64,000 nucleotides of DNA from Laetmonice hystrix (Eukaryota): NCBI GenBank assembly GCA_965235115.1, contig OZ249436.1, positions 16,742,001 through 16,806,000 on the forward strand. Reading direction: 5' to 3'. Numbering within the stretch: the first letter of the stretch is position 1; each line of letters opens with the position of its first letter. The position numbers and the translations under genes were made by a program. The notes beneath the pieces are model-generated. The model had not been told where the DNA came from. It worked only from the letters and a program-made list of their open reading frames with translations, and did no database searches. Below are positions 3,241-56,000 of this stretch, piece after piece.

Positions 3241-5089
3241 GCAAAGATTATGACAAGGTTGGCAACTATAAACCATGGCTGAGTGAAGCCTCCCTGGCCG
3301 AGTTCAACAAGAGGGCGAAATGTTTGGTGAACCAGTACGGTCAATACGAGATTCTGCCGGGGGTGAAGGTTTGTAATTTATACTTTTATCAAACTTTCTC
3401 GGACTAATTCAACTTCTAATTCAAGTGTAAGTTGGATTCATTCCTTCTTGTTTATTTATTTTGTTTATTTTTCTGAGGCCCCTTATTTTTAGATTTCCTC
3501 TCTTTTTTGATGTTATGACTATATTTCAATAATATATATAGTATTTGAATAAAATAAAACAAGTGTGTTAATAGCATTTATTTTGTGTGTGTGCAATAAA
3601 GGTAGAATCAAATCATGCCGAGCATATTAGCGAGGCTATAAAAAAATTGTGGGCCCCCCTCCTTATCAAAATATTGAATCTCCCACTGTACTACTGCGGT
3701 AAAAGAACTGTGTGTGGTTGATGTCTGCAACATTAGGTGGACGGAGAGCTGACATTGGGGGAGAACATCGCCGATAATGGGGGTATCAAGGTGGCCTATG
3801 ACGCCTACCAGAGTTGGCGGAAGGCCCGCGGTGACAAGTCGGGACTCGACCCCAAACTGCCTGGCCTCGATCTGACACATGATCAGCTCTTCTTCGTCGC
3901 TTTGGCAATGGTAAGATTCAACTGCTCTAGAAGGTGTTCCCTTTAAAAATGACCATCATGAAGGACCGTAGAATGGGTTCTCCTGACCGTTAAGCCTAAT
4001 GGAGTAAGAATGACCGTCGTGAAGGACCATATAGAATGGGTTCTCATAACCTTTAAATACAGTCAGAATGACCGTCCTGACGGGGCATCAATAAACAGCG
4101 AAGTGAGCGAACTGAACGAACTGAGCGAACTGAGATCGATTAGTCATGCTACAAGCCAGTCTCGAATTTTAAAACTAAGAAAGTGTCAGTGTTATACATG
4201 TTAACCAAACTTTGTGCACTCTCCAGCCCTGGTGTACTACGGCTACAGACGCCATCTACCGGAAGCTCATAAAAACAGACGTACACTCGCCTGGAAAATT
4301 CAGGTACAGCATTCCTTACATTACTCGCCTAAAAAATCCAGTAACACTTTCCCCACACACCTGGCAGACACCGGTAACACTTTCCCCACACACCTGGCAG
4401 ACACCGGTAACACTTTCTCCACACACCTTGCAAACACAGCTAACACTTACACAACTCACCTGGCAAATACAGGTAACATTACAACACACACCTGGCAGAC
4501 ACAGGTAACACACAACTCACCTGGCAAATACAGGTAACATTACACCACATACCTGGCAGACACAGGTAACACATAACTCACCTGGCAAATAACATTAGTC
4601 ATTACACCACACACCTGGCAGACCCAGGTAACACATAACTCACCTGGAAAATACATGTACAGGTAACATTACACCACACAACTGACAGACACAGGTAACA
4701 CTGACACAACTCACCTGGCAAATACAGGTAATATTACACCACATACCTGGCAGACACAGGTAACACATAACTCACCTGGCAAATACAGGTAACATTACAC
4801 CACACACCTGACAGACACAGGTAACACTGACACAACTCACCTGGCAAATACAGGTAACATTACACCACACACCTGACAGACACAGGTAACACTGACACAA
4901 CTCACCTGGCAAATACAGGTAACATTACACCACATACCATTCATCGCCATTCATCTCCTGTTTACTGTCAGCTATTTGTACTGTTTCAGGGTAATTGGGC
5001 CGCCAAGAAACTACGACAAGTTCTCCGAAGTCTTCAACTGTCCTATCGGCAGCTACATGAATCCCAGAGATAAATGTATCATCTGGTGA
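3241..5089 (+). CDS. M13 family zinc metallopeptidase (neprilysin/endothelin-converting enzyme-like), last four coding exons; 5' part outside window
   Basis: Exons 3241-3368, 3737-3910, 4227-4303 and 4990-5089 are joined by GT..AG introns with consistent phases. Translation contains [11 protein letters not shown] (M13 ExxD zinc-ligand motif), [18 protein letters not shown] and the C-terminus [18 protein letters not shown], typical of M13 peptidases. Confidence 0.95.
4304..4935. repeat. Intronic minisatellite (about 30-34 bp units) derived from an M13 exon end plus donor
   Basis: Unit actcacctggcaaatacaggtaacatt versus junction actcgcctggaaaattcag|gtacagcatt. Confidence 0.9.
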
Positions 5090-5154
5090 TAGAGGATTGA
5101 AAAGCCATTAATGACAACAATATATGGATAGATGTAGTGTCAAATTTCACAGTC

Positions 5155-5960
5155 AGGCTGTTAGTTGACCAATGAACATGTTCACCAATCATGCTGTTAG
5201 TCGTTTGACCAATGAACATGTTTAACAATCATGCTGTTAGTTGTTTGACCAATGAACATGTTTAACAATCATGCTGTTAGTTGTTTGACCAATGGACATG
5301 TTCACCAATCATGCTGTTAGTTGACCAATGAACATGTTTAACAATCATACTATTAGTTGTTTGACCAATGGACATGTTCACCAATCATGCTGTTAGTTGA
5401 CTAATGAACATGTTTAACAATCATACTGTTAGTTGTTTAACCAATGGACATGTTCACCAATCATGCTGTTAGTTGACTAATGAACATGTTTAACAATCAT
5501 GCTGTTAGTCGTTTGAGCAATGAACATGTTTAACAATCATGCTGTTAGTTGTTTAACCAATGGACATGCTCACCAATCATGCTGGGTATATCGCCCATGA
5601 TAACTTAAACCCCACGAAATTTGGTGGAAAGTAAAGATCCATGGCCCTGACCTTATCCCTAAACCTTAACCCCAGTCCCTACACCTCCCAAAAACATATC
5701 CCTATCCTATCCCTATCCCTATCCTTGACCTTAACCCTAACCCCTGCCCAAACATTTCGTGGAAAGTTATCATGGGGGAAGAACCTCATGCGGTAAGTTG
5801 ACTAATGAACATGTTTAACAATCATGCTGTTAGTTGTTTGACCAATGGACATGTTCACCAAACAGCTAGTCGTTTGACCAATGAACATGTTAAGCAATTA
5901 TGCTGTTAGTTCACCAGTGAGCATGTTAACCAATCATGCTGTCAGTAACTGTTTTTGACC
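5155..5960. repeat. 3'UTR minisatellite, 36-40 bp unit
   Basis: (atgctgttagttgtttgaccaatgaacatgtttaacaatc)n. Confidence 0.95.
5585..5785. mobile_element. MITE with telomere-like (CCCTAA/CCCTAT) interior, inserted in a 3'UTR minisatellite
   Basis: Imperfect TIRs (..cccatgataactt..ccacgaaat / atttcgtgg..aagttatcatggg..); near-perfect 8-bp TSD tcatgctg/tcatgcgg. Confidence 0.75.
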
Positions 5961-6125: not shown

Positions 6126-6635
6126 GATGTTTATCAAAGTAGCCTCCTTCTGCAATGACTCTCGCCAGCTCTTGTAATGTCAGTATAATTGGATAACCTC
6201 CTTCTGATCCACTGACTGGGGTGTTATTGGTCTTCAACCCCGAGTTATGTTAACGCAAGTTGGTACGGTGTCCCATAAAGCACGGTATACACGAGTACTG
6301 GAACGACGTCTCGTTGTGTCGTGTATAATCGCCAGCCGTGCAACCACCCTTGCCACGACAGTTGCCGGTTGTTGCTGGTCGTCGCTAAATAAACCATTTT
6401 ATACAGATTATTTAAAAGTAAAATTATATAGTAATTAGACATGTCCGTCCCTTATATGACACCATAAATTGGGACTAGCACCCGTCCTCTTCCGGTGTTT
6501 GCATTGTGCAGGCGTACTTGCCTGCTCCCAAGTGTTTGTTGGGCCAGGACGAACCCCGGCGCGTCAAATGTTGTTTGTTGGTGAATCACACACCACTCCC
6601 TGGTGTACTCTGGCCGAAGAGTACAAACATAATCA

Positions 6636-6835
6636 GCTGGAAGATTTCGATCCTCGGGTCAGATGTTGCTACTCGGCTCGCCGATTTCGAATCTCGGCTC
6701 GCCAATTTCGCTACTCCGGTCAAATGTTGCTACGCGGGTCGTCTGTAGCAACCACTTTTGTCATTTTTACCACTTTTGTCACAGGTCACCACTTTTGTCG
6801 CACAAAATGCCCACTTTTGTCACAGGTCACTACTA
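6636..6835 (+). repeat. Dispersed repeat (gctactcgg / cacttttgtcac motifs); inverted partner at 8470-8787
   Basis: Reverse-complement similarity to 8470-8787. Confidence 0.8.
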
Positions 6836-8469: not shown

Positions 8470-8787
8470 GAACGACAAAAGTGGGCGACGTTGTGACAAA
8501 AGTAGTGAGCTGTGACAAAAGTGGGCATTTTGTGTGACAAAAGTGGTGACCTGTGACAAAAATGGTAAAAATGACAAAAGTGGTTGGTACAGTCGTCGAT
8601 TTCGATCCTCGGCTCGCAGGTTTCGGTACTCGGGTCCAATGTCCCGAGTAGCGAAATCTGCGAGCCGAGTAGCAACATTGGACACGAGTACTGAAATCTG
8701 CGAGCCGAGGATCGATATCGACAAACCGAGTAGCAACATCTGACCAGAGTAGCGACATTTGTGACCCGAGGATCGAAATCCCCCAGC
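8470..8787 (-). repeat. Inverted copy of the 6636-6835 repeat
   Basis: gtgacaaaagtg and ccgagtagc motifs, the reverse complement of 6636-6835. Confidence 0.8.
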
Positions 8788-12181: not shown

Positions 12182-12206
12182 TACATTACTACAGTGGTGG
12201 TAATTG

Positions 12207-20000: not shown

Positions 20001-23000
20001 TCACCCTGGGAACATAACACGTAACCAATCAGTCCCGATCACCATGTGACGTCATCACCGGAAACACGTCACCGATCCTACGTCATGCCGTGGCTTCAAA
20101 GCAATCCTCTACTGAAAACAAGGATTAACAGAAATACGTTCCTGGGGAAAATAAAACATAATTCTACCACAGCAGAAAGAGGCTTACTTTCGTAAAAACC
20201 TGAGGGTTTGGGAACATGCATACTTGTGGGTTGGATATCTTGTGAGGTGTGCTCATGATGGGGAAACCTAGTCGGCATGCCTGTCGCATGCACTAGGTGG
20301 CGCTGCGGATAAAAAGCCCGTGAGAGGGCAGAACTGACGAGTTACCTGTGGACGTACCGGCCCCGTGCGTCTTCCTGTGGAAGATTGGGAGAGAAGGCCG
20401 GTGACTGAGCTATCAAAGACTGACAGTGAGCTATCATAGACTGACAGTGAGCTATCATAGACTGTCACTGAGCTATCAAAGACTGACAGTGAGCTATCAT
20501 AGACTGACAGTGAGCTATCATAGGCTGACACTGAGCTATCATAGACTGTCACTGAGCTATCAAAGACTGACAGTGAGCTATCATAGACTGTCACTGAGCT
20601 ATCATAGACTGACACTGAGCTATCATAGACTGTCACTGAGCTATCATAGACTGTCACTGAGCTATCATAGACTGTCACTGAGCTATCATAGACTGTCACT
20701 GAGCTATCATAGACTGACACTGAGCTATCAAAGACTGACAGTGAGCTATCATAGACTGACACTGAGCTATCATAGACTGACACTGAGCTATCAAAGACTG
20801 ACAGTGAGCTATCAAAGACTGACACTGAGCTATCATAGACTGACACTGAGCTATCATACACTGTCACTGAGCTATCATAGACTGTCACTGAGCTATCATA
20901 GACTGACAGTGAGCTATCATAGACTGTCACTGAGCTATCAAAGACTGACAGTGAGCTATCATAGACTGTCACTGAGCTATCATAGTCTGTCACTGAGCTA
21001 TCATAGACTGTCACTATGCTATCATAGACTGACAGTGAGCTATCATAGACTGTCACTGAGCTATCATAGACTGACAGTGAGCTACCATAGACTGTCACTG
21101 AGCTATCAAAGACTGACAGTGAGCTATCATAGACTGTCACTGAGCTATCAAAGACTGACACTGAGCTATCATAGACTGTCACTGAGCTATCATAGACTGA
21201 CAGTGAGCTATCATAGTCTGTCACTGAGCTATCATAGACTGCTACTGAGCTTTCATAGACTGTCACTGAGCTATCATAGACTGCCACTGAGCTATCAAAG
21301 ACTGACAGTGAGCTATCATAGACTGTCACTGAGCTATCATAGACTGTCACTGAGCTATCATAGACTGTCACTGAGCTATCAAAGACTGTCACTGAGCTAT
21401 CATAGACTGTCACTGAGCTATCACAGACTGACAGTGAGCTATCATAGACTGACACTGAGCTATCATAGACGGACACTGAGCTATCATAGACTGTCACTGA
21501 GCTATCATAGACGGACACTGAGCTATCATAGACTGACAATGAGCTATCATAGACTGTCACTGAGCTATCATAGACTGACACTGAGCTATCATAGACGGAC
21601 ACTGAGCTATCATAGACTGTCACTGAGCTATCATAGACTGACACTGAGCTATCACAGACTGTCACTGAGCTATCACAGACTGTCACTGAGCTATCATAGA
21701 CTGTCACTGAGCTATCATAGACTGACACTGAGCTATCATAAACGGACACTGGGCTATCATAGACTGTCACTGAGCTATCACAGACTGACAGTGAGCTATC
21801 ATAGTCTGTCACTGAGCTATCATAGACTGACACTGAGCTATCATAGACGGACAAGGGGCCATCCTAGTCTGACTCTCGGCTAGCATAGACCGACATTGGG
21901 CTATCAAGGAACCAAACTGTGTTGTCATAGACTGATACTGGGCTATCATGGACCGGGGTCACCAAAGCTACAATATTATAGCTGTAGTTTGGTGGGAAAT
22001 CACCTGTTTGTGGATGGTCACCCTGACGTGGACACGAGTTCCATGCTGAACAACTAATGTTATGTGTTAGGTTTACATACATCAGACAGTTATTAGGTTT
22101 TGGTATCACAAACAGCAGGCTCCATTCTGACATACATGTATATTGAACACAAATGACATTTATACCATGGCAATGACAACAAAGTGCGTGTCTGAATAAA
22201 ACAGAGCTTCACTGAGTTTCTGAACAATCCAACATTTTCATCAAATGGCTATCCATTAATAGATCAGATTTTTCTCTCGACTCAGAGCGGTTGTCTGCTC
22301 TAATTTCTGGTGCCAGTACTCACGCATAGGTGTCGCCTCCATACGGTGAGACCCAGCCGGACCCGTCAGCCTGTCCGCGCCCGAGCTGGGAGTTAGCGCC
22401 TGACTGGTTGTCTACCACTATGATCGCCTTACCCTCGTCATCACTGTAACAGAGGCACACGTTCTCACGTTAAACACTGCCACTGTAACACAGACACATG
22501 TCAAGTTCTCACGTAAAACACTGTCACTGTAACACAGACACACTTAAAGTTCTCATGTTAAACACTGTCACTGTAACACAGACACACGTAATTTTCTCAC
22601 GTTAAACACTGTCACTGTGACACAGACACATGTAAAGTTCTCACGTTAAATACTGTCTTTGTAACACAGACACACTTAAAGTTCTCACGTTAAACATTGT
22701 CACTGTAACACTGGCACACGTAAAGTCCTCACGTGTGTCTGTGTGTCACTGTATACACTGGCACACGTAAAGTTCTCACGTTAAGCACTGTTACTGTAAC
22801 ACAGACACTTGTAAAGGTCTCACGTTAAACACTGTCACTGTAACACAGATATACGTAAAGTTCTTACGTTAAACACTGTCACTGTAACAGACACATACAA
22901 TTCTCACGTTAAACACTGTCACTGTAACACAGACATACGTAAAGTTCTGACGTTAAACACTGTCACTGTAACACAGACACATGTAAAGCTCTCTCGTTAA

Positions 23001-38000: not shown

Positions 38001-41000
38001 AAGATCACCTCAGGTTAGTGAAAAATTTCGGTAAGAAATTAGGGGGGGGCACCCCCTAATTGACTTCACCCTTAAACTGTTCCTGTTTTCTGGTAGCACC
38101 TATCTCGACGTGATTGTCTTTAATATCTCCCGGGATAAAATGACATGATACTTGGAGGATGTAGAGCTTTCTTTCTTTTTAGGGCCAACTTACATGATCT
38201 GGATCCTAGACAAGTAACCCTGTGTACCTATCAACCCATCAACCTAACAACTCACCTCCACGGTCACGGATGGCACCGTCTCCCGGTCAAGCTGACCACT
38301 ACCCTGCTCGCTGACCGTCACAACTCCCGACACTGGGTTAATGGCGAACCAGGCGGCCGTGCTGCCACCTAGCGAGTAGCGTACCTCTGTGTTGTAGCCA
38401 ACATCTCGGTCAAACGTCTTCACGGGTGGAAACTGTTTGGGGGGAACACCGAGAAACGGGAACAAGTTCAGGTTTACAGCAAGAACGACTGCCCTCTCAT
38501 GGTTTTCATCCCCACAACTTCACAAAGGGCATAGATTATAGATGAGGCAAATGGGTCGTCGATACGTTACACAAGGATATAAAGTAGGAGTAGGTCATTC
38601 CAATTTCATTACTCCAATCTACCATGACACATTTAGCTATCCTACAAACCTACAACAACCACTAAACCGGTGAACGTTGGACTACTAACAACAAACTCGC
38701 AATTGTGTGCAACAATTCCAATATCTGGTTGGCTGCACAACGTAAAAGCAATTACCATGTACAGCACTGGCAACAAAAAGCAACACTTTATCAACAGTTA
38801 CTGTGCAAGCATACAACAAGAATAATGTCCCACTAAGTAGGACAATCGGCCTGTAGCATGGCACCGTTTTATACATCAATTGGCAAGATTTAATTTGAAG
38901 CATGGGACAGCAACACACAACAGCAGCTGACAACACTAGCACGGGGCACAATCACAACAACCAACACTCAGTTTGACGCAAGGTGGCGCCACCGAGCTGT
39001 ACTCACTTTGTCCGGACCGACCTGACCACAACAAAACATACACCGACTCCTCAGTTACCATCTGACATAACAAACATCTTTCTGTCTGTCTGAGTTCAAT
39101 TAATGTCGTCTGACTTGAAGTCAGAAACGCATTGATCCCAACATGTAGACCCTTACCCGAACTACGTCGTGCTTGACCGAAACCTTCATCATCATCTTTG
39201 AGAATTAATCATGGAACACCAAACACCGAACAGTAAATTAATTTACCTAGATATACGGAAACTATCCCACATGTACACGGTATGTATCCAAGATATAAAC
39301 GGTAACTATCCTGAGGAATGAGCGTGTGACTCACCACGAATACGGTTGTCCCTGGCGGCGCCTGCTCGACCACCTCGCCCATGTAGGGCGTGTCCATAAA
39401 CTGGGGCGCGTTGTCATTGACGTCATCTACTTCAATCTCCACTTCACACGTGTTCTGGGGGGCACAGAGAATACATTACACCGAGAAGCCTTCAGGTCAG
39501 GCCAGTTTAAACTTAGAAATCTCAGCTTTCTCAAAACAAAAAGATAATTAGGAGGAGAAAGTTTTCCTGCACCCTTACCATGCGCGGAGGAACCCCCATG
39601 TCAGCTGCTGTTACAATCAACGTATGACGTGGAGCCGTCTCCCGGTCCAACTCCCCAACTACCAGAACCTGTCCAACTTCAGGCTGGAGACAACAACAAG
39701 ACTTTGTCAATGAATATTCGCCAATTCCCTGTGAACGGATGTGAGGGTTGATTGTGCCATCAGAACCTGGTGAGACACTAGACTATGTATACGAGTAACA
39801 TAGACCATTATTTTCTGTTGTGTTATATCAAGTATTACGACATCAAGTACTGTGTGACGTCACCTCGGAGATATTGAAGAGTCCTCTTGCACTTCGTGAC
39901 GTCAGATAATACGTCACGCGTCCGTTGTCACCACCGTCACGGTCAGTGGCCACCACCTGACCTACGACCTGACCCAACTGACCAGAGAGGTCATTCTCCG
40001 TGACCCGGAAGAAGTAGACCTCCTGTGAGAACACTGGGCTATTGTTGTTCATGTCGAGGAGGCGAATCGTCAAGGCAACCTGTAAACATCCACTCATAAG
40101 TTAAAAATTCCTTATCTACAAGATAAAACCAGACCTAGGAAATGGGAGCAGGTCATGATTGGCAGGAGACATGTGGCAGGTGGCCTGTTGTAGGTTACCT
40201 GGTCTGAATGTTTGCCGTCCGTCACGTGGGCATGCAGGTCGTAACGGTCGACCTGCATGGCGTCCAGTGGCCAATTAACGCGTACTTCCCCCGTCTGGGG
40301 GTCGATACTGAACGGACCTGCAAAGAGGTGCATTGTTTAAATGGTTTATTTGTATTTTCTGATTCAAGTAGGTAGGCCTATGTATTCTTGTAAATCTAGG
40401 CGTCGTCGGGACTTATCATCGGCTGCTCATATTTCAGACTCTAACAGACACAAAAGTACAAAACGACCTACTTTCTTCCACAAGGCTGTAGGTGAACAGG
40501 GAGGCTGAATCGGCGTCTTGGGCAGTAACCTTGGCAATAGACGTCCCCGGGGGCGTTCCCTCCGTAATGGTGACGTCATAAACAAGGTCAGGAAACGACG
40601 GAGGGTTATCGTTGACGTCAGCAATGTAAATAGTTGCCTGGTAACGTAAACACTCATTATTTTTACCTCCAAAAGTAGGCTAAATACTAAATAATTGTAT
40701 CCTGGTAATGGAACGGAATCTGCAGTAAAAATAAACTGTGCGGACGTTTGTTTGTTTGTCTGTTTGTTTGTCTGTCTGTCTGTCGGTATGTCTGTCTGTC
40801 TGTCTGTCTGTCTGATCGTTTGAGTGTGTTTTCCTGGTACTGACCGTGGCTGTACTGGTAAGAGCAGGCCGGCCCTGGTCTGTTGCCAACACCTTCACTT
40901 CATAGATGGCGCTCTGGTTTACCGTCTTTAGCCCGTCCTTTTCTCGGTCAAGTTCTCTCGTCACCCGGAGCTCACCCTGAAACAAAGGGTCACTTCACTG

Positions 41001-44000
41001 AACCTGAACAATATATCCGATACTTGGCAGCACTGCAGGAGCTGTCCGCCTCCAAACTAGGAGAAACTATGTAGAGGTAACGTACATGCGTGGTTTGCTA
41101 ACTCACCACAGTGTAGTCGTTCCGTATCGACGTCAGAATCATAAACTCAGGACTTTCGCTGCCAATGGAGAAGACGACCTTGGCGTTGTCGCCTAGGTCA
41201 GCGTCCGTAGCGCTGACCATGAGTAGGAGGTCTAAGCTGACCGACCCTACAAACCCAGGGGTATCAGTACTGAGTGAAATACGTGAACTGGCGCCATATC
41301 ATGGTGGTTTTAGAGTCATATCCATTGTCATAGTCAGAGCCGGACTCTTCAATAATATATCGTGCACAACTCCTAGCAGCATAATCTTCTTAAAAGAAAT
41401 TATACTTTGTAAAGTTGATTAATGGTATATAGCTTTTTGGGACTGGGCAGTTTTGAAAACCAGTATGTACCGAATATGACCGGATATGACTCGTATGACT
41501 GACACGATCCGACAGTTTAGTTTACCACTATCCCTTGTTTATAGTATACCCGTATCATACTTAGGATGTGTTTATAGTATACCCGTATCATACTGAGGAT
41601 GTGTTTATAGTATACCCGTATCATACTGAGGGTCTGTTTATAGTACTATACCCGTATCATACTGAGGATGTTATAGTATACCTGCATCATACTGATGGTC
41701 TGTTTATAATATACCCGTACCATACTGAGGGTTTGTTTATAGTATACCCGTATTATACTGATGGTCTGTTTATAGTATACCCGTATCATACTGAGGATGT
41801 AGTTTACCTTCGGTCGTGTTGACCATGTATGGCTGACCGACAAACTGGGGAGCGTGGTCGTTGTCATCTTCCACCGTAACGTACAGGGTGGCTGTGTTCT
41901 GAAACCGACCAATGGCATGCTCTCATTACCGACACTACAGGGAACCGACCAATCGAGACCCTCATTGGCCGTCACTGCAGGGAACCGACCAATCGAGGCC
42001 CTCATTGGCCGTCACTGCAATAGGCCAACCAATGACAGACCCTCACTGGCATCACTACAGGGAACCGACCAATCGAGACACTCATTGGCCGTCACTGCAA
42101 GAGGCCAACCAATGACAGACCCTCACTAGCATCACTGCAGGGAACTGACCAATCGAGACCCTCATTGACCGTCACTGCAATAGGCCAACCAATAACAGAC
42201 CCTCATTGGCATCACTGCAGGGAACCGACCAATCGAGACCCTCATTGACCGTCACTGCAATAGGCCAACCAATAACAGACCCTCATTGGCATCACTGCAG
42301 GGAGCCCACCTCTGGTAAGGTTTCATTCGGCGTCTCTTCCATGTTCAAATTCATAAATCCGCAGGTGAGCATATAAGTCATGGTACACACACACTATCCC
42401 AAGCAGACATATAACTTACCTGGTGGCCAGCTGTATCCGTTGCCATAACAACCAGTGAATACCTGTCCTTAGTCTCCCTGTCCAGCACAACTGGTGTGTC
42501 GTCGCATCTAACGGTCACCATACCTGTGGTCTCATCCACGTCAAACATCTCTGTGTCACCTGTAAAACAAAACACGCATCTGTAAAACAAAATATCCTTC
42601 TGTAAAACAAAATATCCTTCTATAAAACAAAACATCATTCTGTAAAACAAAACATCATTCTGTGAAACAAAACATCTTACCTGCCTCCAGGGGGTATTTA
42701 ATCTGCCCCTCATCCAGCCGGTCAGGGTCACGACACCACCCCCCCCCCCCACCCCACTGTCCAGGAGTTAGGGTGAGAGTTGATCTTACCTGCTTCCAGG
42801 GTGTATTTAATCCGCCCCTCATCCAGCCGGTCAGGGTCACGAGCTCTAACCAGCGCCACCTCCTGGCAGCCGCCCGCACTCTGGAGGACACGAACCGACA
42901 CAAACACTTGTAGCTGTACTCTCACAGAATACCAACCAGAACACCAACACGAATAATGCTGAACGTGCTGTAGGGGCAAGGTCTTTCCCTTCGTCTTTTA
43001 AAAAAGTGGCTCAGAACTGTACTATATTCTAAGATCAGGTAAAGCCCCTCCGTACAAGACGACGAACGCTGACTGTGACTGACCTCTGTGACGCGTGACG
43101 TGACGGAGGATGCGTTAAAGACGGGCGAGTTGTCATTGACGTCAATGACCTTGAGGAGGAGTTCGGCCGGTTGACTGTAGTGACGGCCGTCGCTCGCACC
43201 GATCTGTGGGAAACATCTAGTATAATTTATTGGGGAAATGAACGTCCAACAGCTAGACCTAGAATCAACTGGGGAAATGGACGTCCAACAGCTAGACCTA
43301 GAATCAACTGGGAAAATGGACGTCCAACAACTAGAATCAACTGGGGAAATGGACGTCCAACAGCTAGACCTAGAATCAATTAGGGAAATGGACGTCCAAC
43401 AGCTAGACCTAGAATCAACTGGGGAAATGGACGTCCAACAACTAGAATCAACTGAGGAAATGGACGTCCAACAGCTAGACCTAGAATCAACTGGGAAAAT
43501 GGACGTACAACAACTAGAATCAACTGGGGAAATGGACGTCCAACAGCTAGACCTAGAATCAACTGGGAAAATGGACGTCCAACAACTAGAATCAACTGGG
43601 GAAATGGACGTCCAACAGCTAGACCTAGAATCAATTGGGGAAATGGACGTCCAACAGCTAGACCTAGAATCAACTGGGGAAATGGACGTCCAACAACTAG
43701 AATCAACTGGGGAAATGGACGTCCAACAACTAGAATCACCCGGGGAAAAGTTATTCAGTCCAAATTGCTCTGAACGTCTTATGCTAGATCCAGGAGTGCC
43801 ATTAATCAATAATAAAATGTGACTACTTCTACTTGTGGTATTCGACTGATATTTTCCCTGAGTTACGGGGACTTCACCTTAAGCCGGTAGGTGTCGGACA
43901 TGTTGGCTGGCATGACGTCACGATCCAGGGGCCGCTGCAGGCTGATGACAGCCACGTTGTCCAGTGATTCTACCTTGAGGTGATCTCGGTCGTTACGGTC

Positions 44001-47000
44001 GACCACGCCGTACCACATCTGAAAAACACCAGATCCTTCTTCATCCATCCAATCAAAACACACCATATCGTCTTGTTATATCAGTTTTCATCCATCCAAT
44101 CAGAACATTCAGGGATGAAAGTGGCCAGCTGTAAAATTTCCTGAAATTCTGACCTGGGGGGAGCGGCGGGGGCCAATGTCCATAATTAATATTTGTTCAT
44201 GCGCACATCCAAGGCTTACCCCCCCCCCCCTTAAAAAAAGTCAGGCTAGGAACAGCAGACAATCATGATCCGATAAGGTCTCCTAGCTATTATATATTAT
44301 AGGGCCTAGCCCTCAGTATTTAGTCGCCACCCCACCCCCCCCCCCCCACCCCCCACCCCCTCAACCCCCCCACCCCTGCAAATTTGCTGGATAGACTCCA
44401 TCACTCATCAGTCCATGCCCCTGTTCAAGGCTGTTGCTTGCCTGTCACTCAGTCACAGTCAGTGCATGTCAACCTCTGCCTGGCTCTGCCGTCTCTCTCC
44501 AACATTGGAATCCAGTCGGCTTTTAGCGTCCAAAATGCAGCCGATTACGTTGTCAAACAGCTTCCATGTGTTAGACTGACCACACAGGCTGTCCATCAGT
44601 CTTGACCCTCAGCAGTCACGACCCTCATGCAGCGGCTCTCAGCCAAGCAACACAGGCTTCGCTGAGTCGAGTGGTTCAGCCCGTGTGTCCATGTGCCACT
44701 CATGTTGTTGTGAAAATTGTCACTTCCGGTCTTATCAGGACACCTGCACTGATCGACAAATGTAATGAAAAGTCCTGACAACCCCAAAACTTCAGTGAAA
44801 ACCACTTACGTAATTCCACTATCCTCAAATTTATATGCAATAACACATTATGAGAACTTACTGACATATATACTAGGCAGATTCATAGAACTAAATTGAC
44901 CCAGTTTCCTGTGAGAAGTGACATTGTGATGGTGCGTAGTTCGTCAGCCTAATCACTATCACCGGGACTAGACATGTCTATAGTCTCGTTGCTATCACTA
45001 AGTGAGCGCTCAGGCAAAACTCGCGCATGGATATGGCATAATGGCAAGCCTGAATCAACGGGCTTCGCAGCTGCCTGACCATCAATTTTGCCTGAAGTCA
45101 TTACCTGAGGCACGTCGCTCTCACCACAGCGACACGGGGCCGTGCCTGCCAGACGGGACAGACGGCACCGCGTGCCGGTAGAAGTCAGCCCACGCGGGCC
45201 GGTCTATGTGAGCGATGTCACCACAGCTACAGGGACCGCGGGCGGTACACCAGCACCCCCGGCAGACCGGCCTATGCACGGTGGCACCCGTGACACTGGA
45301 CGGGTTTGAGACACTCTAATATCCCCATCTATAAACGAACTTTGGCAGGTAGAGATATATTGAGCTGCATGGTGTTAAAACACGTCCTGGAAGGGGATAT
45401 TGTTTCATTTGATATTAATTGCCCACCACACAGTCCAGGGCAATACTTAGCCTTGGCTTAGGCCTACCTCTTTTGCCTATAGATCTAGGCTTATTTCCTT
45501 TTTTGGGTATTATTTCTTGGGGGGGGGGGGATTTTTTCAAATTTCCTGATTTCAGGAAATTTCCTGAAAACTTTCATCCCTGAACATTACAGTCTTCACA
45601 TATCCAATCAGAACATTACAGTCTTCATCCATCCAATCAGAACACACCATATCATCTTGTTATATCACAGTCTTCATCCATCCAATCAGAACACACCATA
45701 TCATCTTGTTATATCACAGTCTTCATCTATCCAATCAAAACACACCATATCGTCTTGTTATATCACAGTCTTCATCCATCCAATCAGAACACACCATATC
45801 GTCTTGTTATATCACAGTCTTCATCCATCCAATCAAAACACACCATATCGTCTTGTTATATCACAGTCTTCATCCATCCAATCAAAACACACCATATCGT
45901 CTTGTTATATCACAGTCTTCATCCATCCATCCATCCCCCCCCCCCCCCCCCCCGCAGGCTACGGCCCTTTTCTGAACTGACCACGTCGTCTCTTTATCCA
46001 ATGCCATCCCGTCCTCTCCCGTCCCGTAGACCTAATTAACCCGGCTATAATCGTACAGACGGCCACAGATAACGTCTTAACCCACTGACAGTGAAGGCTT
46101 GTCGCTCACCATGTCATGCATATCGTTGTCATGGGCAACCAGTTTAGCGACCGTGGTACCGACCGGAGCGTCTTCCGAGACGGTGGCGCTGTAGTAGGTG
46201 AACGGGAAATAGGGGGCCTCGTCATCGCTGTTACCGACCTCAACTACAACCTACAAACAACGGACAAAGGTTAACACAGCGTCACGGCGAACAGCAACAC
46301 AGCGCCTGCAAATACAGGCGTCACAGTGAACATTGAACGGCGACACAGCGCCTGCAAATACAACGTCACAGTGAGCATTGAACGGTGACACAGCGCCTGT
46401 AAATACAGGCATCACAATGAACATTGAACGGCGACACAGCGCTTGCAAATACAACGTCACAATGAACATTGAACGGTGACACAGCGCCTGCAAATACAAC
46501 GTCACAATGAACATTGAACGGTGACACAGCGCCTGCAAATACAACGTCACAATGAACATTGAACGGTGACACAGCGCCTGCGAATACAACGTCACAATGA
46601 ACATTGAACGGCGACACAGCGCCTGCAAATACAGGCGTCACAATGAACATTGAACGGCGACACAGCGCCTGCAAAGGACTATACAACTTTTCTCTTTAGG
46701 GACATTGTCAAAGTAATTGGGTTACCCCTGATGCCCGTGCATTTCAAAAGAAAAATACAGTCTACGCCAGTGCCAGGATTACCTTAACAGTCAATGTTCG
46801 GTATTACCTTAACAGTCAATGTTCGGTAGAAATCATGTGTAGCTCTATCTAGAAAAATATTGATTCCGTCTCATTTCGGAAGATGTGTGTAGGGGGGAGG
46901 GTCCATTGTCCTGCTCGACCACCAAAGCTAAGAGTTAGGTCTGTGGGATGTGAGTCTGGCCTGAACAGCAGCCACCAGTGGTCCTCAACTCCATAGCGGA

Positions 47001-50000
47001 TATTTCGGAGTGCATGACATAGTAAGTTGAACAACAATTAATCAGGCTATGAACATAAGAGAAAGTTGTCCAGCTGGTCATAGATCACTGAGCCAATGAA
47101 GATTGAGGGATCACCGTGAGGCGTACAGGCCTACAGATTGAGGGGTCACCGTGAGGCGTACAGGCCTACAGATTGAGCGGTCACCGTGAGGCGTACATGC
47201 CTACAGATTGAGGGGTCACCGTGAGGCGTACAGAGTTGGGAGAGATCGAGGAGGTTCTTACACTTACGTAAACTTTGGACATCCAGTCCCAAGGCTAAAC
47301 GTGGCAGGGAAAATATTACACATCAATTAATAGGTAATTATGGCGAGCAGTATAGTAACTATCAAACGCATTATTAAAGGAAATACTTCGAGTCATCTGT
47401 ACGGTCACATGTAAATATCGGGATCACATCGGTTTAGATGCTTGGTTTCACCAATCAAACCATGATCAATGCCAGACTCACCACGATGTTTTGGTCGTAC
47501 TGTGGCAGGTTGAGGTTGTAGGCCGCCACGACTAACGTGTGAACAGCCTGATCTTCCCACCGGAGTCGTTTCACCAGACGGATGACACCCTGCAACCAAT
47601 CAAAACAGCATTCAGCGAGTATAGCCAACCAATCAGATCGCGGTATTCAGTGACGTAAATTAGGCAAAGTGAGCATCGGCAACCAATGAGAAGAGAGCAT
47701 TCAGCGACGGAAATCAGGTCACGTGAGCATCGGATATGACACTCTCTCCATGCAGTGCCATAAATTCACCGCCATTTTCCAGCAAGGTGAACTTACCGTG
47801 GTCTGGTCGATGGTAAAGTGACCCGGCTCGTTGCCGGCGGTAATATTGTAACGTAACGACTCGTCTAGCCGTTGTCCTGGTAACCAGGCGTTGACGTCAA
47901 CCACGTCGTGCGGTGTAGACGTACTCTCCTCCATGGACACCTTGAGGACGGTGCCAGAGAAGGTCGGGTAGTCACGGCTGGCCCCGGGGTCAAGGACGTC
48001 GATGGTGATACTCCTGAGACTATAAAGTGAAGGGACGCCATGGTCGTAGGCCTGCACGGTCACGTGGTACGTTCCCAGACCAAGGTAAGCCCGGGTCGTC
48101 AGTTCACCTGTCATCCCGTTCAGAGAGAAACGTTCCTGTTCTGGCAAGGAGAACGTCACGTTACTGTTGCCATTGGCAACGCTGTCAGCGTCCAGGGCGA
48201 AGAAGGTGATGATTGCGGTGGCCGGGGGGACGGGGCTGAAGAGACGGAGTCGTTCCGGGATGGGAAGGAGACGTGGAGGGTTGTCATTGACGTCACGAAC
48301 TGTCAGCCTCACCATGGTAACCGTGGCCCGCGGGTTGTCGGCTCGGTCACGGGCCTCAACCTCTAGCTGGTAGTAACGGACCGTCTCATAGTCCAGCGAC
48401 TTGACTACCACCAGATCACCTGACTGGTCAAGGCGGAACGCCAGCCCGACATTCCCACTGACCACTCGGAGTGACCACTGTCCAGCGGGCCCCGGGTCGC
48501 TGTCAGTCACGGTTAGACGCAGGACGGTCGTGCCTATGGCAACGTCCTCGCTCACTGTCTCCTCGTGGACGAAGCTGGAGAACTCGGGCGCGAACCGGTT
48601 ACTATCATTGAGGAACACTGTAAGATCTGTGACTGACATCCTGGCCGGAATACCGTGATCACGGGCGTACACCTTCATCCGGTATACACTTCTTGTAGCC
48701 ACGTCCAACTTGGCCGCCACCGTAACCAGCCCCGTGTTGGGGTCAATGGAGAAACGACCTTCCGTCCCCATCAACCAGTACGTCACGTGGCCATTGTAGG
48801 TAGCGTCCCTGTCGGTGGCTGAGACGGCGGCCACAGAGCGCCCCACCTCCAGGGTCTGGCTGATACTCCGGGCGTACGACTCCTCCAGGAACCGTGGGTT
48901 GTTATCGTTGACGTCCGTCACCGTCACCGTCACGTCACAGTGACTCGACTGGACGCCGTCAGACGCCATGACGCGCAGACTGACGATAGGGGTCGCCTCG
49001 GCGTCCAGTGGCCCCCTGGTGGCGATGAGGCCAGTCAGAGGGTCGATGGTGAAGTTGAGGTGTCGTGGATCCAAGTGGTAACGGAGAGTTCCTACGGGAT
49101 CTGGATCAGTGGCCGATACCTGGCGAGATATCATTAAATGTTTTGGTATCTAACAACTCAAACATGTTTAATAATCAAAATGAAACACAAGCAAGAAATA
49201 TTAGGGAACATAATTTAATTCGTATCTTTCGTGTGAGTCTATTTTTCGCGAAAATATACATTTGACCGTTCCCATTTTCCAGTGTGGCAGGGATTTTCAC
49301 CAAAAGGGAATGTAAACAGGAAGGCATAGAGTTTCTGAGTGTGCATGTCATATTTCCATAGTCCGACCTGCAAGACGGCCGCCACACATTTAACGGTTGC
49401 AGGCCGGGCCTTCCCGTGGTAGATTGACTGAGTGGTTGCAGAACGGAACTATCCGTGGTAGATTGAGTGAGCGGTTGCAGGTCAGACCTACCTGTAAAAC
49501 TGCCCCTGTTCCCGGGAAGAGATTCTCTCGGACCTCGGCCTGGTAGTGAGTTTTGGTGAAGGAGGGTGCGTGACTATTGGTCGGGTCGACTGCCACGATC
49601 ACCTCGGCTGTCGTACTGTGAGCCGGCCAGCCACCTGCAAAATACACACATCACAACTCAGTCAGTCCTGCGAGCCACCTGCAAAATACATACCGCACAT
49701 CAGTCATACCAACCACCCGAGACATACACAGCACAACCCAAGTCATACCAACCAACTGAGATATACACAACACAACTCACGTCATACCAACCACCTAAAA
49801 CATACATAACACAACTCAGTCAGTCCCCATGTTGCCAATTGTCATTCAAGTTTCGATCTTAGTGCCACGTGATGGTGCCTGGAATTCTTCATGTACACCG
49901 CCCCCCCCCCCCCGAATTACTGGCCCGGGACCATGTAGACTGACCGTCACGAGCCTGCACCATCAGACGGTGATGTGGTTCCTTCGTGTGATCCAAGAGG

Positions 50001-53000
50001 GAGCCACGGTTGACTGTCAAGACGCCGGACGTTTCCTCCAGGTGAAAGATACCGCGATCGTTCCCACTCAGGAGGTGATACGTCACGTGACCTGCTGCTC
50101 CAGAGTCCGCGTCCACGGCCCTCACCTGGAGAATACAGACACAGTGTGTATCTTATCGTGTTCGCCAAAATCAATTCATTTATTTTAAGAGGGGAGCAAC
50201 TTCTAAGGAGGCAAATTCTGCAGAGCCAGAACGACAGAGCCGGCCTCTATCGAGATTCCCATACCTCCCCGATACAAACCTACAACACGGTTTGGTTGGA
50301 TTGACCCTCTACCACTGACGTCATACAAACCTGTAACACGGCCTGGTTGGAGCGACCCTCTACCACTGACGTTACACAAACCTGTAACACGGCCTGGTTG
50401 GAGCGACCCTCTACCACTGACGTCATACAAACCTGTAACATGGTCTGGTTGGAGCGACCCTCTACCACTGACGTCATACAAACCTGTAACAAGGCCTGGT
50501 TGGAGCGACTCTCTACCACTGACGTCATACAAACCTGTAACATGGTCTGGTTGGAGCGACCCTCTACCACTGACGTCATACAAACCTGTAACATGGTCTG
50601 GTTGGAGCGACCCTCTACCACTGACGTCACACAAACCTGTAACATGGTCTGTTTGGAGCGACCCTCTACCACTGACGTCATACAAACCTGCAACATGGTC
50701 TGGTTGGAGTGCCCTCTACAACTGACGTCATACAAACCTGTAACATGGTCTGGTTGGAGCGACCCTCTACCACTGACGTCATACAAACCTGTATCACGGT
50801 CTGGTTTGAGCGACCCTCTACAACTGACGTCACACAAACCTGTAACACGGCCTGGTTGGAGCGACCCTCTACCACTGACGTCTCGTAAAAAAACTGTAAC
50901 ACGGCCTGGTTGGAGCGACCCTCTACCACTGACGTCATACAAACCTGTAACACGGCCTGGTTGGAGCGACTCTCTACCACTGACGTCATACAAACCTGTA
51001 TCACGGTCTGGTTGGAGCGACCCTCTACCACTGACGTCATACAAACCTGTAACACGGCCTGGTTGGAGCGACCCTCTACCACTGACGTCATACAAACCTG
51101 TATCACGGTTTGGTTGGAGCGACCCTCTACCACTGACGTCATACAAACCTGTAACACGGCCTGGTTGGAGCAACCCTCTACCACTGACGTCATACAAACC
51201 TGTAACACGGCCTGGTTGGAGCGACCCTCTACCACTGACGTCATACAAACCTGTAACACGGCCTGGTTGGAGCGACCCTCTACCACTGACGTCACACAAA
51301 CCTGTAACATGGTCTGGTTGGAGCGACCCTCTACCACTGACGTCATACAAACCTGTAACACGGCCTGGTTGGAGCGACCCTCTACCACTGACGTCATACA
51401 AACCTGTAACACGGCCTGGTTGGAGCGACCCTCTACCACTGACGTCACACAAACCTGTAACACGGCCTGGTTGGAGCGACCCTCTACCACTGACGTCACA
51501 CAAACCTGTAACACGGGCTGGTTGGAGCGACCCTCTACCACTGACGTCACACAAACCTGTAACACGGGCTGGTTGGAGCGACCCTCTACCACTGACGTCA
51601 CACAAACCTGTAACACGGGCTGGTTGGAGCGACCCTCTACCACTGACGTCATACAAACCTGTAACACGGCCTGGTTGGAGCGACCCTCTACAACTGACGT
51701 CATACAAACCTGTAACATGGTCTGTTTGGAGCGACCCTCTACCACTGACGTCACACAAACCTGTAACATGGTCTGGTTGGAGCGACCCTCTACCACTGAC
51801 GTCATACAAACCTGTATCACGGTCTTGTTGGAGCGACCCTCTACAACTGACGTCATACAAACCTGTAACATGGTCTGTTTGGAGCGACCCTCTACTACTG
51901 ACGTCACACAAACCTGTAACATGGTCTGTTTGGAGCGACCCTCTACCACTGACGTCATACAAACCTGTAACACGGTCTGGTTGGAGCGACCCTCTACCAC
52001 TGACGTCATACAAACCTGTAACACGGGCTGGTTGGAGCGACCCTCTACCACTGACGTCATACAAACCTGTAACATGGTCTGGTTGGAGCGACCCTCTACT
52101 ACTGACGTCACACAAACCTGTAACATGGTCTGTTTGGAGCGACCCTCTACCACTGACGTCATACAAACCTGTAACACGGTCTGGTTGGAGCGACCCTCTA
52201 CAACTGACGTCTCGTACACCGACTCCGAGAACACGGGCGCGTTATCGTTCAGGTCGAGAACCTCGATCTGGATGGTTGCCAAGGCGACGTGCTGCTGGCC
52301 CGAGGGTCCCTGTGACGTGAGTGGGGAGTCGGAGGCCATAACAGTCAGCATGTAGGCCGGCTGGGTCTCGTGGTCGAGAGGGACACGAGAAAACAGCTGC
52401 CCCGTCATGTTGTCCAGACGAAACGTCGCTGAAACCAAAGACAACAACCGTGTCATAACCGAACGGTTTATTATTGAAAGAAATTAGAAAAGTTTAATCG
52501 ATGAACTCCCGAGCCCAGCGTCAAACTGTGTCCTGTCATCTGTATGCAATAAATATCAATCTCACTGATATGGATTACGGAATCCGTCAATCTCACCGTC
52601 AATCTCATAGTTTACATCAATCCCACCTGTATCACATCAATCTCACCTGTATCACATCAATCCCACCTGTATCACATCAATCCCACCTGTATCACATCAA
52701 TCCCACCTGTATCACATCAATCCCACCTGTATCACATCAATCCCACCTGTATCACATCAATCCCACCTGTATCACATCAATCCCACCTGTATCACATCAA
52801 TCCCACCTGTATCACATCAATCTCACCTGTATCACCCCCCTGGATGAGGTAGAAGACGTCGTCCTCGTCCTCGTCCTCAGCGGTCACGTGACCCACGTAA
52901 CTCTCGGCGGGTAGGTTCTCAGTGATGCTCAAGGTGAAGGTCGTTGCTATGAAGCTCGGACTGTTGTCATTGACGTTGATTACCGTCACCTTGATGGTTG

Positions 53001-56000
53001 CCGACCTACAAAACCGGAAAGGGCTTTACTCTCACACCACCTTCCCGTAGATACACGTTGGACAAAGACCCTGCGCTCACAATGAACCCCCAACCCTCAC
53101 AGACCCTGACCCTGCGCTCACACCCTCACAGACCCTGGCCCTGCGCTCGCAATGAACCGCGAACCCTCACAGACCCTGACCCGACCTGTACTCACAATGA
53201 ACCACCAACCCTCACAGACCCTGACCCTGCGCTCACAATGAACCCCCAACCCTCACAGACCCTGACCCTGCGCTCACAATGAACCCCCAACCCTCACAGA
53301 CCCTGACCCTGCGCTCACAATGAACCCCCAACCCTCACAGACCCTGACCCTGCGCTCACAATGAACCCCCAACCCTCACAGACCCTGACCCTGCGCTCAC
53401 AATGAACCACCAATCCTCACAGACCCTGACCCTGCGCTCACACCCTCACAGACCCTGGCCCTGCGCTCACAATGAACCCCCAACCCTCACAGACCCTGAC
53501 CCTGCGCTCACAATGAACCACCAACCCTCACAGACCCTGGCCCTGCGCTCACAATGAACCACCAACCCTCACAGACCCTGGCCCTGCGCTCACAATGAAC
53601 CACCAACCCTCACAGACCCTGACCCTGCACTCACAATGAACCACCAACCCTCTGTAGTTTGTGTCAGCATGCGCTCCAAATACTGATAAAGAATTGTACA
53701 GGTGGAGCAGTGTGGCCGCTTTCTTCCAGTGGTTTACATGTTCCTCGTGTACTCACCCGGTCCGAGCCGGCTGTCCGTCGTCAATGGCGACCACCAGGAG
53801 GGAGTACTGACGGGGGCCGTGGTCGTAGTCAAGGCTGGCACCAAGCGTCAACCGACCAGTGGCCATGTATACCTCAAACGGTACCTGTGGTACAGAAAAT
53901 ACGTTATGGGACCTCTTACATCATACCATGGGACCTCTTACATCATACCATGGGACCTCTTACATCATACCATGGGACCTCTTACATCATACCATGGGAC
54001 CTCTTACACTACACCATGGGACCTCTTACATCATACCATGGGACCTCTTACATATACCATGGGACCTTTTACACTACACCATGGGACCTCTTACATCATA
54101 CCATGGGACCTCTTACATCATACCATGGGACCTCTTACATCATACCATGGGACCTCTTACATCATACCATGGGACCTCTCACATCATACCATGGGACCTC
54201 TTACATCATACCATGCATGGGACCTTTTACACTACACCATGGGACCTCTTACATCATACCATGGGACCTCTTACATCATACCATGGGACCTCTTACATCA
54301 TACCATATGGGACCTCTTACATCATACCATGGGACCTCTTACATCATACCATGGGACCTTTTACATTACACCATGGGACCTCTTACATCATACCATGGGA
54401 CCTCTTACATCATACCATGGGACCTCTTGCATCATACCATGGGACCTCTTACATCATACCATGGGACCTCTTACATCATACCATGGGACCTCTTACATCA
54501 TACCATTGGACCTCTTACACTACACCATGGGACCTCTTACATCATACTATGGGACCTCTTACATCATACCATGGGACCTCTTACATCATGGGACGTATAA
54601 GTATGTCGTAGGTGAGGTGGCTGTTAACGGATTGACTGACCCCGTATGTAAGTATGTCGTAGGTGAGGTGGCTGTTAACGGATTGACTGACCCCGTATGT
54701 AAGTATGTCGTAGGTGAGGTGGCTGTTAACGGATTGACTGACCCCGTATGTAAGTATGTCGTAGGTGAGGTGGCTGTTAACGGATTGACTGACCCCGTAT
54801 GTAAGTATGTTGTAGGTGAGGTGGCTGTTAACGGATTGACTGACCCCGTATGTAAGTATGTCGTAGGTGAGGTGGCTGTTAACGGATTGACTGACCCCGT
54901 ATGTAAGTATGTCGTAGGTGAGGTGGCTGTTCCCGCTGTTGTCAAGGTCCGTGGCGTACAGGTGTTCCATCAAGGTCGTCCCGGGTGCCGTGTCTTCTCT
55001 CACCTCCAGGTGGTACACGTCTGTAAACGGAGGGATAACCTTACTCCATGTGAGCCCTCCAGGTGGCCCTCCAGGTGAGCCCTCCAAGTGGGCCCTCCAG
55101 GTGGGTTCTCCATGTGAGCCCTCCAGGTGAGCCTTCCAGGTGGCCCTCCAGGTGGGCTCTCCATGTGAACACTCCATGTGGGCCCTCCATGTGGGCCCTC
55201 CAGGTGGGCCCCCCAGGTGGCCCTCCAGGTGGGTCTACCAGGTTGGCCCTCCAGGTGGGTTCTCCATGTGAGCACTCCATGTGGCCCTCCAGGTGAGCCA
55301 TCCAGGTGGCCCTCCAGGTGGGCTCTCCATGTGAGCACTCCATGTGGGCCCTCCAGGTGGGCTCTCCATGTGAGCACTCCAGGTGGGCCCTCCAGGTGGG
55401 CCCTCCAGGTGGGCCCTCCATGTGGCCCTCAAGGTGGGCTCCAGGTGAGCCCTGCAGGGGAGAACTTCAGGGGAACGTGTCAGGAACACCCGTACTCCCT
55501 GTACCCCCGTATACTCCCCCAGTGAAGAATCTAACTTCACAGTGAGCTCACTGTGACCTCATATTAAAGGTATGGAAAGATCACATGGTTAGGTCACAGC
55601 AGACTCATTTTGAAGCAAGTAGGTTAACTCACTATAAAGTCACATTGTGAGGTCACCATGTGAGCTAGCTGTGACCTTTCTATGAGTTTGCAAATCTCAC
55701 ACTGTGAGCTTTCTGTGAGCTTTTTGTGAGTTTGAACTCAACATGTGAGCTAGCTGTGACTTCTCTGTGAGTTTGCACAACTCACAGAATGAGCTTCCTG
55801 TGAGCTGTTTGTGAGTTTGCAAGGCAAACTCACCAGGTGAGCTAACTATGATATATTTGCGAGTTTATATTGTGTATTTTTAGATCTTATAAAAAACACA
55901 GTTATTATGGTTTAAATGTTTATTACATCATAATTAGTACAAAAAGGTCCATGTCCACATTGGAAGGGAAGAAGATGGAGCTCAGTTCGTCAGACCATAG

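What the first reader, a model, noticed from the sequence alone, without database searches (positions are those of the whole stretch)
4284..54931. Minisatellites are systematically seeded on exon/intron junctions in both genes
Seen: at least 11 unrelated arrays whose unit contains the adjacent splice site, usually plus exon bases. Donor arrays: 4304-4935 (M13), 34100-34706, 36618-37083, 50272-52215, 52616-52835, 54595-54931. Acceptor arrays: 22441-23050, 25076-25338, 28362-29222, 30071-30308, 42560-42680. Several other arrays start within about 30 nt of an exon. Arrays always extend into the intron, leaving one intact exon. Inference: either a mutational process focused at exon boundaries or selective retention. 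The spliceosome must pick one site out of up to about 38 near-identical ones.
Basis: partly seen in the sequence, partly recalled or inferred. Interest (0 to 1): 0.75.

Follow-up and report, generated by a model that had tools for sequence, protein, structure and literature searches.

The report
Splice-junction "mirage" minisatellites in cadherin gene
In two genes of an invertebrate (probably an annelid worm), 13 of 90 predicted exon borders have been copied head-to-tail into the neighbouring intron, a repeat type already known from lancelets as "mirages"; it is likely a harmless by-product of frequent local duplication in short introns, with an unexplained crowding of repeats at the intron's far (acceptor) end.

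Summary
A 43-exon cadherin-23-like model (one open frame, 2797 aa) and four M13-peptidase exons put a splice site inside all 11 listed ranges; an unbiased probe finds 13 of 90 junctions duplicated. DNA contigs support the two junction arrays tested. Corrections: one acceptor unit holds no exon bases, one has lost the AG in its copies, and two reach the junction only through decayed ends. This is the published amphioxus "mirage" (also human F7 intron 7, chicken "exon stuttering"); this scan has reported it before, in this genome and at least 13 others. "Systematically seeded" is overstated. With arrays collapsed and transposons removed, introns are about 205 nt, so geometry alone predicts 4.9-8.7 junction overlaps among 28 arrays, against 12 seen (1.4-2.4x; P 0.001-0.09). 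The excess is one-sided: 16 arrays touch the last 40 intron bases (expected 8-9), while 8 touch the donor end (expected 9-10); this test is post hoc. Donor units are 35-84% exon and acceptor units 0-23%, as a splicing filter predicts. Which site is spliced could not be tested here.

The parts
22324..62068 (-). Cadherin-23-like gene, 43 modelled exons (5' part lies beyond the window; further 3' exons probable down to about 13751)
   Evidence: All AG/GT, one stop-free frame of 2797 aa; 37% over 2762 columns, collinear with Tubulanus cadherin-23-like P0131; Pfam Cadherin
3241..5089 (+). Last four exons of an M13 peptidase (3241-3368, 3737-3910, 4227-4303, 4990-5089)
   Evidence: Open frame ending in the stop; Pfam Peptidase_M13 E 1.3e-10
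4284..4938 (+). Donor mirage, 32/33-nt units, decayed at the exon end; GT at 4304; 19 exon nt in unit
54598..54931 (-). Donor mirage, 51 nt x 6.5; GT at 54895; 36 exon nt; 5 of 5 decoys in frame and stop-free
52614..52835 (-). Donor mirage, 20 nt x 11; GT at 52826; 9 exon nt; supported by contig depth
50272..52211 (-). Donor mirage, 51 nt x 38; weak GT at 52168; 43 exon nt; 27 of 35 decoys in frame and stop-free
42677..42842 (-).
36619..37084 (-). Donor mirage, 37 nt x 12.8; GT at 37071; 13 exon nt
34100..34706 (-). Donor mirage, about 41 nt, two alternating variants; GT at 34685; 21 exon nt
49620..49822 (-).
42560..42676 (-). Acceptor array, 20 nt x 5.8; unit ends at the AG, 0 exon nt; supported by contigs
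30071..30308 (-). Acceptor mirage, 58 nt x 4.1; internal copies have lost the AG
28362..29222 (-). Acceptor mirage, 44 nt x 19.7, fills intron 37 (collapsed length 40 nt); 10 exon nt; 7 of 19 decoy AGs score at least as high as the exon-adjacent one
25080..25337 (-). Acceptor mirage, 44 nt x 5.9; 9 exon nt
22441..23034 (-). Acceptor mirage, 44 nt x 13, decayed; 2-3 exon nt
26239..55458 (-). Ten purely intronic arrays that end within 40 nt of an acceptor (starts 26239, 27382, 29338, 31378, 41903, 43231, 45582 with its piece at 44036-44104, 46289, 53906, 55044)
   Evidence: the 44036 piece was joined to 45582 across an inserted element by eye

Best explanation
These are mirage minisatellites: 13 of 90 predicted splice junctions have tandem copies running into the adjacent intron, likely produced by neutral local duplication and amplification and likely kept only when the exon-adjacent splice site still works. 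Shown: each array is built from its own local sequence; arrays make up about half of introns 2-42; without them the introns are about 205 nt, like array-free introns. Inferred step 1: a 13-60 nt stretch duplicates at a high rate anywhere in the gene (replication slippage or flap repair) and then grows by unequal exchange or gene conversion. Inferred step 2: purifying selection removes duplications inside exons and those that leave the exon-adjacent copy without its signals. A donor unit needs only about 6 intron bases and can be mostly exon; an acceptor unit must carry the pyrimidine tract and is mostly intron. Inferred step 3: the first donor copy is used by 5'-to-3' priority, as shown for the human F7 intron 7 repeat, and the last acceptor is used because it is usually the strongest and nearly all others lead to a shifted frame or a stop. 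Geometry gives roughly half of the junction overlaps. The remaining excess lies at the acceptor end, most likely from a modest bias in where duplications are born.
For: Collapsed, transposon-free median intron 205.5 nt with arrays (n=24) versus 207 without (n=21); 12102 of 24590 bases of introns 2-42 are array. Expected junction overlaps 4.9-8.7 of 28, seen 12. Donor end 8 seen versus 9.2-9.8 expected. Wholly exonic arrays: at most one weak two-copy hit (39912) in 8871 exon bases, 11.9 expected, P 9e-5. Exon share of the unit is 0.35-0.84 at six donors and 0-0.23 at six acceptors, P 0.002. In 4 of 6 acceptor arrays no decoy scores as high as the exon-adjacent AG. 1 of 47 decoy acceptors gives an open frame. 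Unit lengths are not enriched for multiples of 3 (12 of 43). Mirage donors and acceptors are not weaker than other sites (P 0.56 and 0.23). Published precedent: PMC3087553, PMC3902484, PMC1557585, bioRxiv 2025.09.16.676548.
Against: Pure geometry does not account for everything: 24 of 28 arrays span or lie within 40 nt of a junction, against 12.6-16.4 expected, and 16 are at the acceptor end against 8.1-9.2 (P 0.0004-0.003). In 2 of 6 acceptor arrays some decoys score at least as high as the exon-adjacent site (7 of 19 and 3 of 15). 36 of 66 decoy donors in the cadherin gene are in frame and stop-free, so decay of faulty transcripts would not hide their use. 13 of 14 M13 decoy donors outscore the true one. 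Array ends show no consistent short microhomology (remainders 0-41 nt in 16 young arrays), so the birth mechanism is not shown.
Confidence: 0.62

Rival explanations
1. Duplications are born preferentially at the intron 3' end, through a process tied to splicing or chromatin (polymerase pausing or R-loops at the acceptor, or exposed linker DNA before the exon nucleosome; these links are recalled, not tested). Selection then only trims the result.
For: 10 of 16 non-spanning arrays end within 40 nt of the intron 3' end (3.5 expected, P 1e-4), 2 near the donor; the result holds at 30 nt (8 vs 2.7) and 60 nt (10 vs 5.2). Two more arrays left out of the test also sit 7 and about 29 nt before acceptors (62077; 20404). 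An unchecked note on this genome reports the same bias (e1-9888266).
Against: One window, threshold chosen after seeing the data. The plain 16 versus 8 split is not significant (P 0.15). Spanning arrays are 6 donor and 6 acceptor. No sequence signature of such a process was found.
Confidence: 0.25
2. The near-acceptor arrays are old acceptor mirages whose inner units drifted away from the terminal, functional unit, so junction seeding is commoner than it looks.
For: 41903, 45582 and 46289 resemble their own acceptor more than most others (rank P 0.045, 0.068, 0.068). Decay of inner copies is visible at 30071, 22461, 49702 and 4334.
Against: Only 1 of 13 near-acceptor arrays reaches P 0.05; combined P 0.10.
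Confidence: 0.08
3. The arrays are functional: in-frame decoy donors add 17-residue repeats to cadherin domains and vary the length of the ectodomain.
For: Both 51-nt donor arrays are in frame and largely stop-free (5 of 5, and 27 of 35, up to 477 extra residues).
Against: Three of the six cadherin donor arrays give no open decoy. No bias to multiples of 3. The inserts would fall inside cadherin repeats. The same arrays occur in an unrelated peptidase.
Confidence: 0.04
4. The arrays are assembly artefacts.
Against: Copies differ in ordered, higher-order patterns. Contigs from three runs hold 42560 and 52614 at the expected depth.
Confidence: 0.01

Closest known systems
Amphioxus 'mirage' minisatellites (Adh3, globins BflGb6 and BflGb9, troponin C, PGBD5). 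Seen: passages of PMC3087553 and PMC3902484. The original Adh3 paper (PMC117041) is not held and is known only through these citations.
   Same: Tandem units of tens of bases spanning an exon-intron border, at both 5' and 3' borders; many but not all copies keep AG/GT; one intact exon remains.
   Different: Host is probably not a lancelet; density is high (13 junctions in 45 introns); normal splicing and length instability were shown in amphioxus but not here.
Human F7 intron 7 37-bp VNTR (PMC1557585; abstract and section list seen)
   Same: First unit spans the donor; identical downstream donors are functional but silent because the most upstream one is chosen.
   Different: Single locus, donor only, mammalian cells; says nothing on acceptor arrays.
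Chicken dot-chromosome 'sequence stuttering' and 'exon stuttering' (bioRxiv 10.1101/2025.09.16.676548; passages seen; supplements not seen)
   Same: Strictly local expansions of unique sequence, purely intronic and exon-edge kinds side by side, sometimes two in one intron; mechanism open.
   Different: 190 of 5572 dot-chromosome introns (3.4%, copies of at least 20 exon nt) versus 12 of 45 introns here by a looser probe; tied to GC-rich microchromosomes; length variation among individuals shown there.
Variable internal tandem repeats at exon-intron borders of human segmental-duplication genes (PMC2812944; outline and first part of Results seen)
   Same: Minisatellite units (about 30 bp) at exon borders.
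   Different: There they remodel gene structure in young paralogues; here they sit in a conserved gene with no sign of structural change.
Microhomology-mediated tandem duplications (PMC13167724; search listing and start of abstract only)
   Same: Neutral duplications depleted from coding DNA by purifying selection; a plausible first step.
   Different: No consistent microhomology could be read at array ends here.

Membership tests
Mirage minisatellite | Tandem unit includes an exon-intron boundary | tested here: met
   13 of 90 junctions; 42560 holds the AG but no exon base
Mirage minisatellite | Minisatellite-size unit (10-160 bp in the published cases) | tested here: met
   20-58 nt, plus one 109-nt lag
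Mirage minisatellite | Many but not all copies keep AG/GT | tested here: met
   66 decoy donors and 47 decoy acceptors in the cadherin gene; none in 30071
Mirage minisatellite | Local origin, each array its own sequence | tested here: met
   3 cross-matching pairs among 46 arrays, none junctional
Mirage minisatellite | Regular splicing is unaffected | not testable with these tools
   Only DNA contigs could be laid; the exon-adjacent sites give an open, collinear protein, which is a prediction
Mirage minisatellite | Copy-number instability between alleles | tested here: inconclusive
   52614 depth fits the assembled count; a variant join at 41908-41928 in 3 of 3 runs suggests an allele difference at a non-spanning array
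Mirage minisatellite | Inner units evolve together, boundary unit apart | tested here: inconclusive
   Seen at 30071 (all inner copies lack AG) and 52614 (9 of 10 copies share one donor variant); no tree built
Chicken exon stuttering | Local intronic and exon-edge expansions in the same genes | tested here: met
   28 arrays in 24 of 45 introns, 12 spanning
Chicken exon stuttering | Confined to GC-rich dot microchromosomes, with population length variation | not testable with these tools
   No whole genome held; window GC 42-55% per 2 kb
Cadherin-23-like gene | Long cadherin-repeat ectodomain, membrane-adjacent region and one transmembrane helix, collinear with a named member | tested here: met
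   P0131 37% over 2762 columns and 35% over 198 juxtamembrane columns; orthology not tested by a tree
Branchiostoma host | Near-identical named lancelet protein | tested here: inconclusive
   None; the only Branchiostoma row listed is a 30% Fat4-like protein. Three of the four searches were length-limited and could not return a full-length orthologue.

The most novel reading that the evidence does not exclude
In this animal lineage new minisatellites are born preferentially at the 3' end of introns, so the splicing machinery or the exon's chromatin edge acts as a local source of tandem duplications; a genome this dense in such arrays would make that coupling, and the choice among many near-identical acceptors, directly measurable.
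Probability: 0.25. Interest if true: 0.6.

Novelty: new member of a known kind. Interest (0 to 1): 0.28.

Why it matters
As a feature it is known. Its value is as natural test material. Rows of up to 35 identical donors and about 20 acceptors in one gene allow a direct test of how a spliceosome picks among equals, which for acceptors is not settled by the papers seen. If the acceptor-end excess holds genome-wide, it would tie repeat birth to gene architecture. Practically, such arrays double intron length and can mislead gene prediction (two give long false open frames).

Tried and rejected
No whole genome is held, so no genome-wide test was possible. No RNA holder listed; this says nothing on expression or splicing. 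No allele lacking the 52614 array appeared, which proves nothing with contigs. Host identity: four protein searches and one cluster look-up gave one unnamed relative at 68-81% and a nemertean full-length match at 37%; 'annelid' comes from other agents' notes and was not established here. Rejected or unsupported: one repeat family behind the arrays; 40-44-nt units as dimers of 20-mers (2 of 19 at P<0.05, neither junctional); a 10.5-nt helical period (P 0.12); weak splice sites as seeds; frame-preserving selection on unit length; near-acceptor arrays as decayed mirages (combined P 0.10). The first gene-wide null kept transposon DNA and three arrays inside a transposon and was replaced. Exons 3' of 22324 were not modelled: candidate exons at 20374-20346 and 19647-19364 do not join exon 43 in phase. 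Literature searches for the feature in annelids or spiralians, or for an acceptor-end bias, found no such report; the library lacks most subscription journals.
Full report
Gene models. The claim depends on where the splice sites are, so I built them first. From six-frame reading I set 43 minus-strand exons from 62068 to 22324. All have AG/GT borders and join into one stop-free frame of 2797 aa. This protein is collinear with a Tubulanus cadherin-23-like protein (P0131) at 37% over 2762 columns, which supports the exon-adjacent sites independently of the arrays up to about residue 2715; the last one or two exons rest on frame and splice signals alone. Four plus-strand exons (3241-5089) give an open M13 peptidase end. 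The models are predictions; no transcript was seen.

Host. The best relatives are an unnamed ENA contig (68-81% on three exons) and the nemertean protein. No near-identical lancelet protein appeared, although three of four searches were length-limited. Other agents call this genome a probable annelid; I did not establish that.

Observation. Tandem Repeats Finder recovers every listed array, and each of the 11 ranges holds a modelled GT or AG. A junction probe run on all 90 junctions, with shuffled introns as control, finds extra copies at 13, adding acceptor 49635 and a two-copy donor at 42789. By TRF bounds alone 9 arrays cover a junction; 4334, 22461 and 49702 reach it through decayed ends. 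42560 has no exon base and 30071's inner copies have lost the AG. The junction arrays are unrelated in sequence. Contigs from three coded DNA runs of at most one sample carry the 42560 junction array intact and show the 52614 unit at 7.3-8.5 times flank depth, where 7-8 is expected. These runs differ from the window at scattered sites but may not be independent of it. Two of 13 junction arrays were tested this way.

Is it more than chance? A fairer null asks where the first unit lay before it was amplified. I collapsed each array to one unit and removed two elements with terminal inverted repeats (55518-61677, 44110-45582) and about 950 nt of a dispersed repeat in intron 42. Dropped rows: three arrays inside the intron-1 element, arrays with period under 10 or score under 50, and arrays outside modelled introns. 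Introns with arrays then have a median of 205.5 nt (n=24) and those without 207 (n=21). Arrays supply 12102 of 24590 bases of introns 2-42. With 28 arrays, 4.9 to 8.7 junction overlaps are expected, depending on whether placement is gene-wide or within the same intron and whether non-viable overlaps are excluded. Twelve are seen (P 0.001-0.09); with the strict count of 9, P is 0.04-0.52. So enrichment is at most about 2.4-fold and is not secure under every null.

Where the excess lies. Counting arrays that span or come within 40 nt of an intron end, the donor end has 8 (9 if the intron-37 array, which starts 7 nt after its donor, is counted at both ends) against 9.2-9.8 expected. The acceptor end has 16 against 8.1-9.2 (P 0.0004-0.003). 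Among 16 non-spanning arrays, 10 stop within 40 nt of the intron's end (3.5 expected) and 2 start near the donor; 30 and 60 nt give the same direction. This was noticed after looking, rests on one gene, uses class labels that I entered from earlier outputs, and the bare 16 versus 8 split has P 0.15. These arrays are mostly not recognisable decayed acceptor copies (1 of 13 at P 0.05, combined P 0.10).

Signs of a selective filter. At the intronic rate 11.9 wholly exonic arrays are expected in 8871 exon bases; at most one weak two-copy hit is seen. Donor units are 35-84% exon and acceptor units 0-23% (P 0.002). This follows if the exon-adjacent copy must keep its signals: a few intron bases at a donor, but the pyrimidine tract and branch region at an acceptor, which lie in the last 40 or so bases (start of abstract of PMC1431707 in a search listing).

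Choice of site. With matrices trained on the gene's 37 other donors and 37 other acceptors, decoy donors mostly equal the true one, and 13 of 14 M13 decoys exceed it. In 4 of 6 acceptor arrays the exon-adjacent AG is strongest, but in 28362 and 22461 it is matched by 7 of 19 and 3 of 15. Using a decoy would keep an open frame for 36 of 66 donors but 1 of 47 acceptors (M13 not included). For donors the human F7 intron-7 repeat shows by mutagenesis that the most upstream of identical sites is chosen (abstract of PMC1557585). For acceptors, site strength plus decay of faulty transcripts is my inference. In amphioxus, mirages were reported not to disturb splicing (passages).

Birth mechanism. Not shown. 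Higher-order patterns (65, 80, 152-234-nt periods) fit growth by unequal exchange. Array ends give no consistent microhomology. Neutral tandem duplication purged from coding DNA is described in general terms in PMC13167724 (listing only); the chicken preprint offers repair under replication stress or meiotic gene conversion as speculation.

Comparison and novelty. The anatomy matches amphioxus mirages on every structural feature testable here, and resembles chicken exon stuttering and human exon-border repeats. An earthworm metallothionein paper reports intronic minisatellites and exon duplications absent from transcripts, but the passages seen do not describe junction arrays. Four searches found no report of mirages in annelids or spiralians or of an acceptor-end bias; supplements of the chicken preprint were not seen. 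The scan itself holds 54 findings with these words in at least 14 genomes, including the two neighbouring windows of this genome; those notes are unchecked and are not counted as evidence.

Verdict. Real, known in kind, dense here. New member of a known kind; interest 0.28.

Noticed in passing
window 55518-61677: About 6.2-kb element with an 11-bp exact terminal inverted repeat and matching subterminal repeats (55653 and 60712 arrays, inverted); it accounts for nearly all of intron 1. No transposase was looked for.
   Followed up: partly
window 44110-45582: 1.47-kb element with a 13-15-bp terminal inverted repeat inserted into a 49-nt minisatellite, splitting it (44036-44104 and 45582-45929); the flanks share 6 bases.
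   Followed up: partly
window 7174-7421, 11774-12798, 23839-24772: Three copies of a dispersed repeat at 73-80% identity, one inside intron 42.
   Followed up: no
window 6633-6834 and 8474-8791: Long inverted repeat pair made of short subterminal units, probably the ends of a 2.1-kb foldback-type element.
   Followed up: no
window 14001-14401: 60-nt x 6.7 array lying in frame inside a 571-aa minus-strand open frame (13751-15466), probably the cadherin's last exon; no Pfam match. It would be an exon-internal array tolerated because it keeps frame.
   Followed up: partly
window 41311-41479: 169-nt piece skipped by a contig in 3 of 3 runs and at very high depth elsewhere: a probable polymorphic mobile insertion in intron 15.
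   Followed up: no
window, 43 arrays: Unit lengths cluster near 20-23 and 37-46 nt (Rayleigh P 4e-4 for modulus 21, best of six tried; P 0.12 for 10.5); the long units are not dimers. Three acceptor arrays have exactly 44 nt.
   Followed up: partly
window 20404-21953: 21-nt x 74 array reads as a 531-aa stop-free frame and ends about 29 nt before a candidate acceptor at 20374 whose phase does not fit exon 43; a missing exon or another splice path is likely.
   Followed up: no
window 55044-55458 and 55002-55012: The 13-nt unit shares about 11 bases with the start of exon 2, some 30 nt away (seen by eye); it may derive from an older exon-edge duplication.
   Followed up: no
window 5146-5946: Related 36-40-nt arrays starting about 57 nt after the M13 stop codon, in the probable 3' untranslated region.
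   Followed up: no
window 16281-16371 and 16393-16500: Two 37-nt arrays that are inverted copies of each other, forming a possible hairpin.
   Followed up: no
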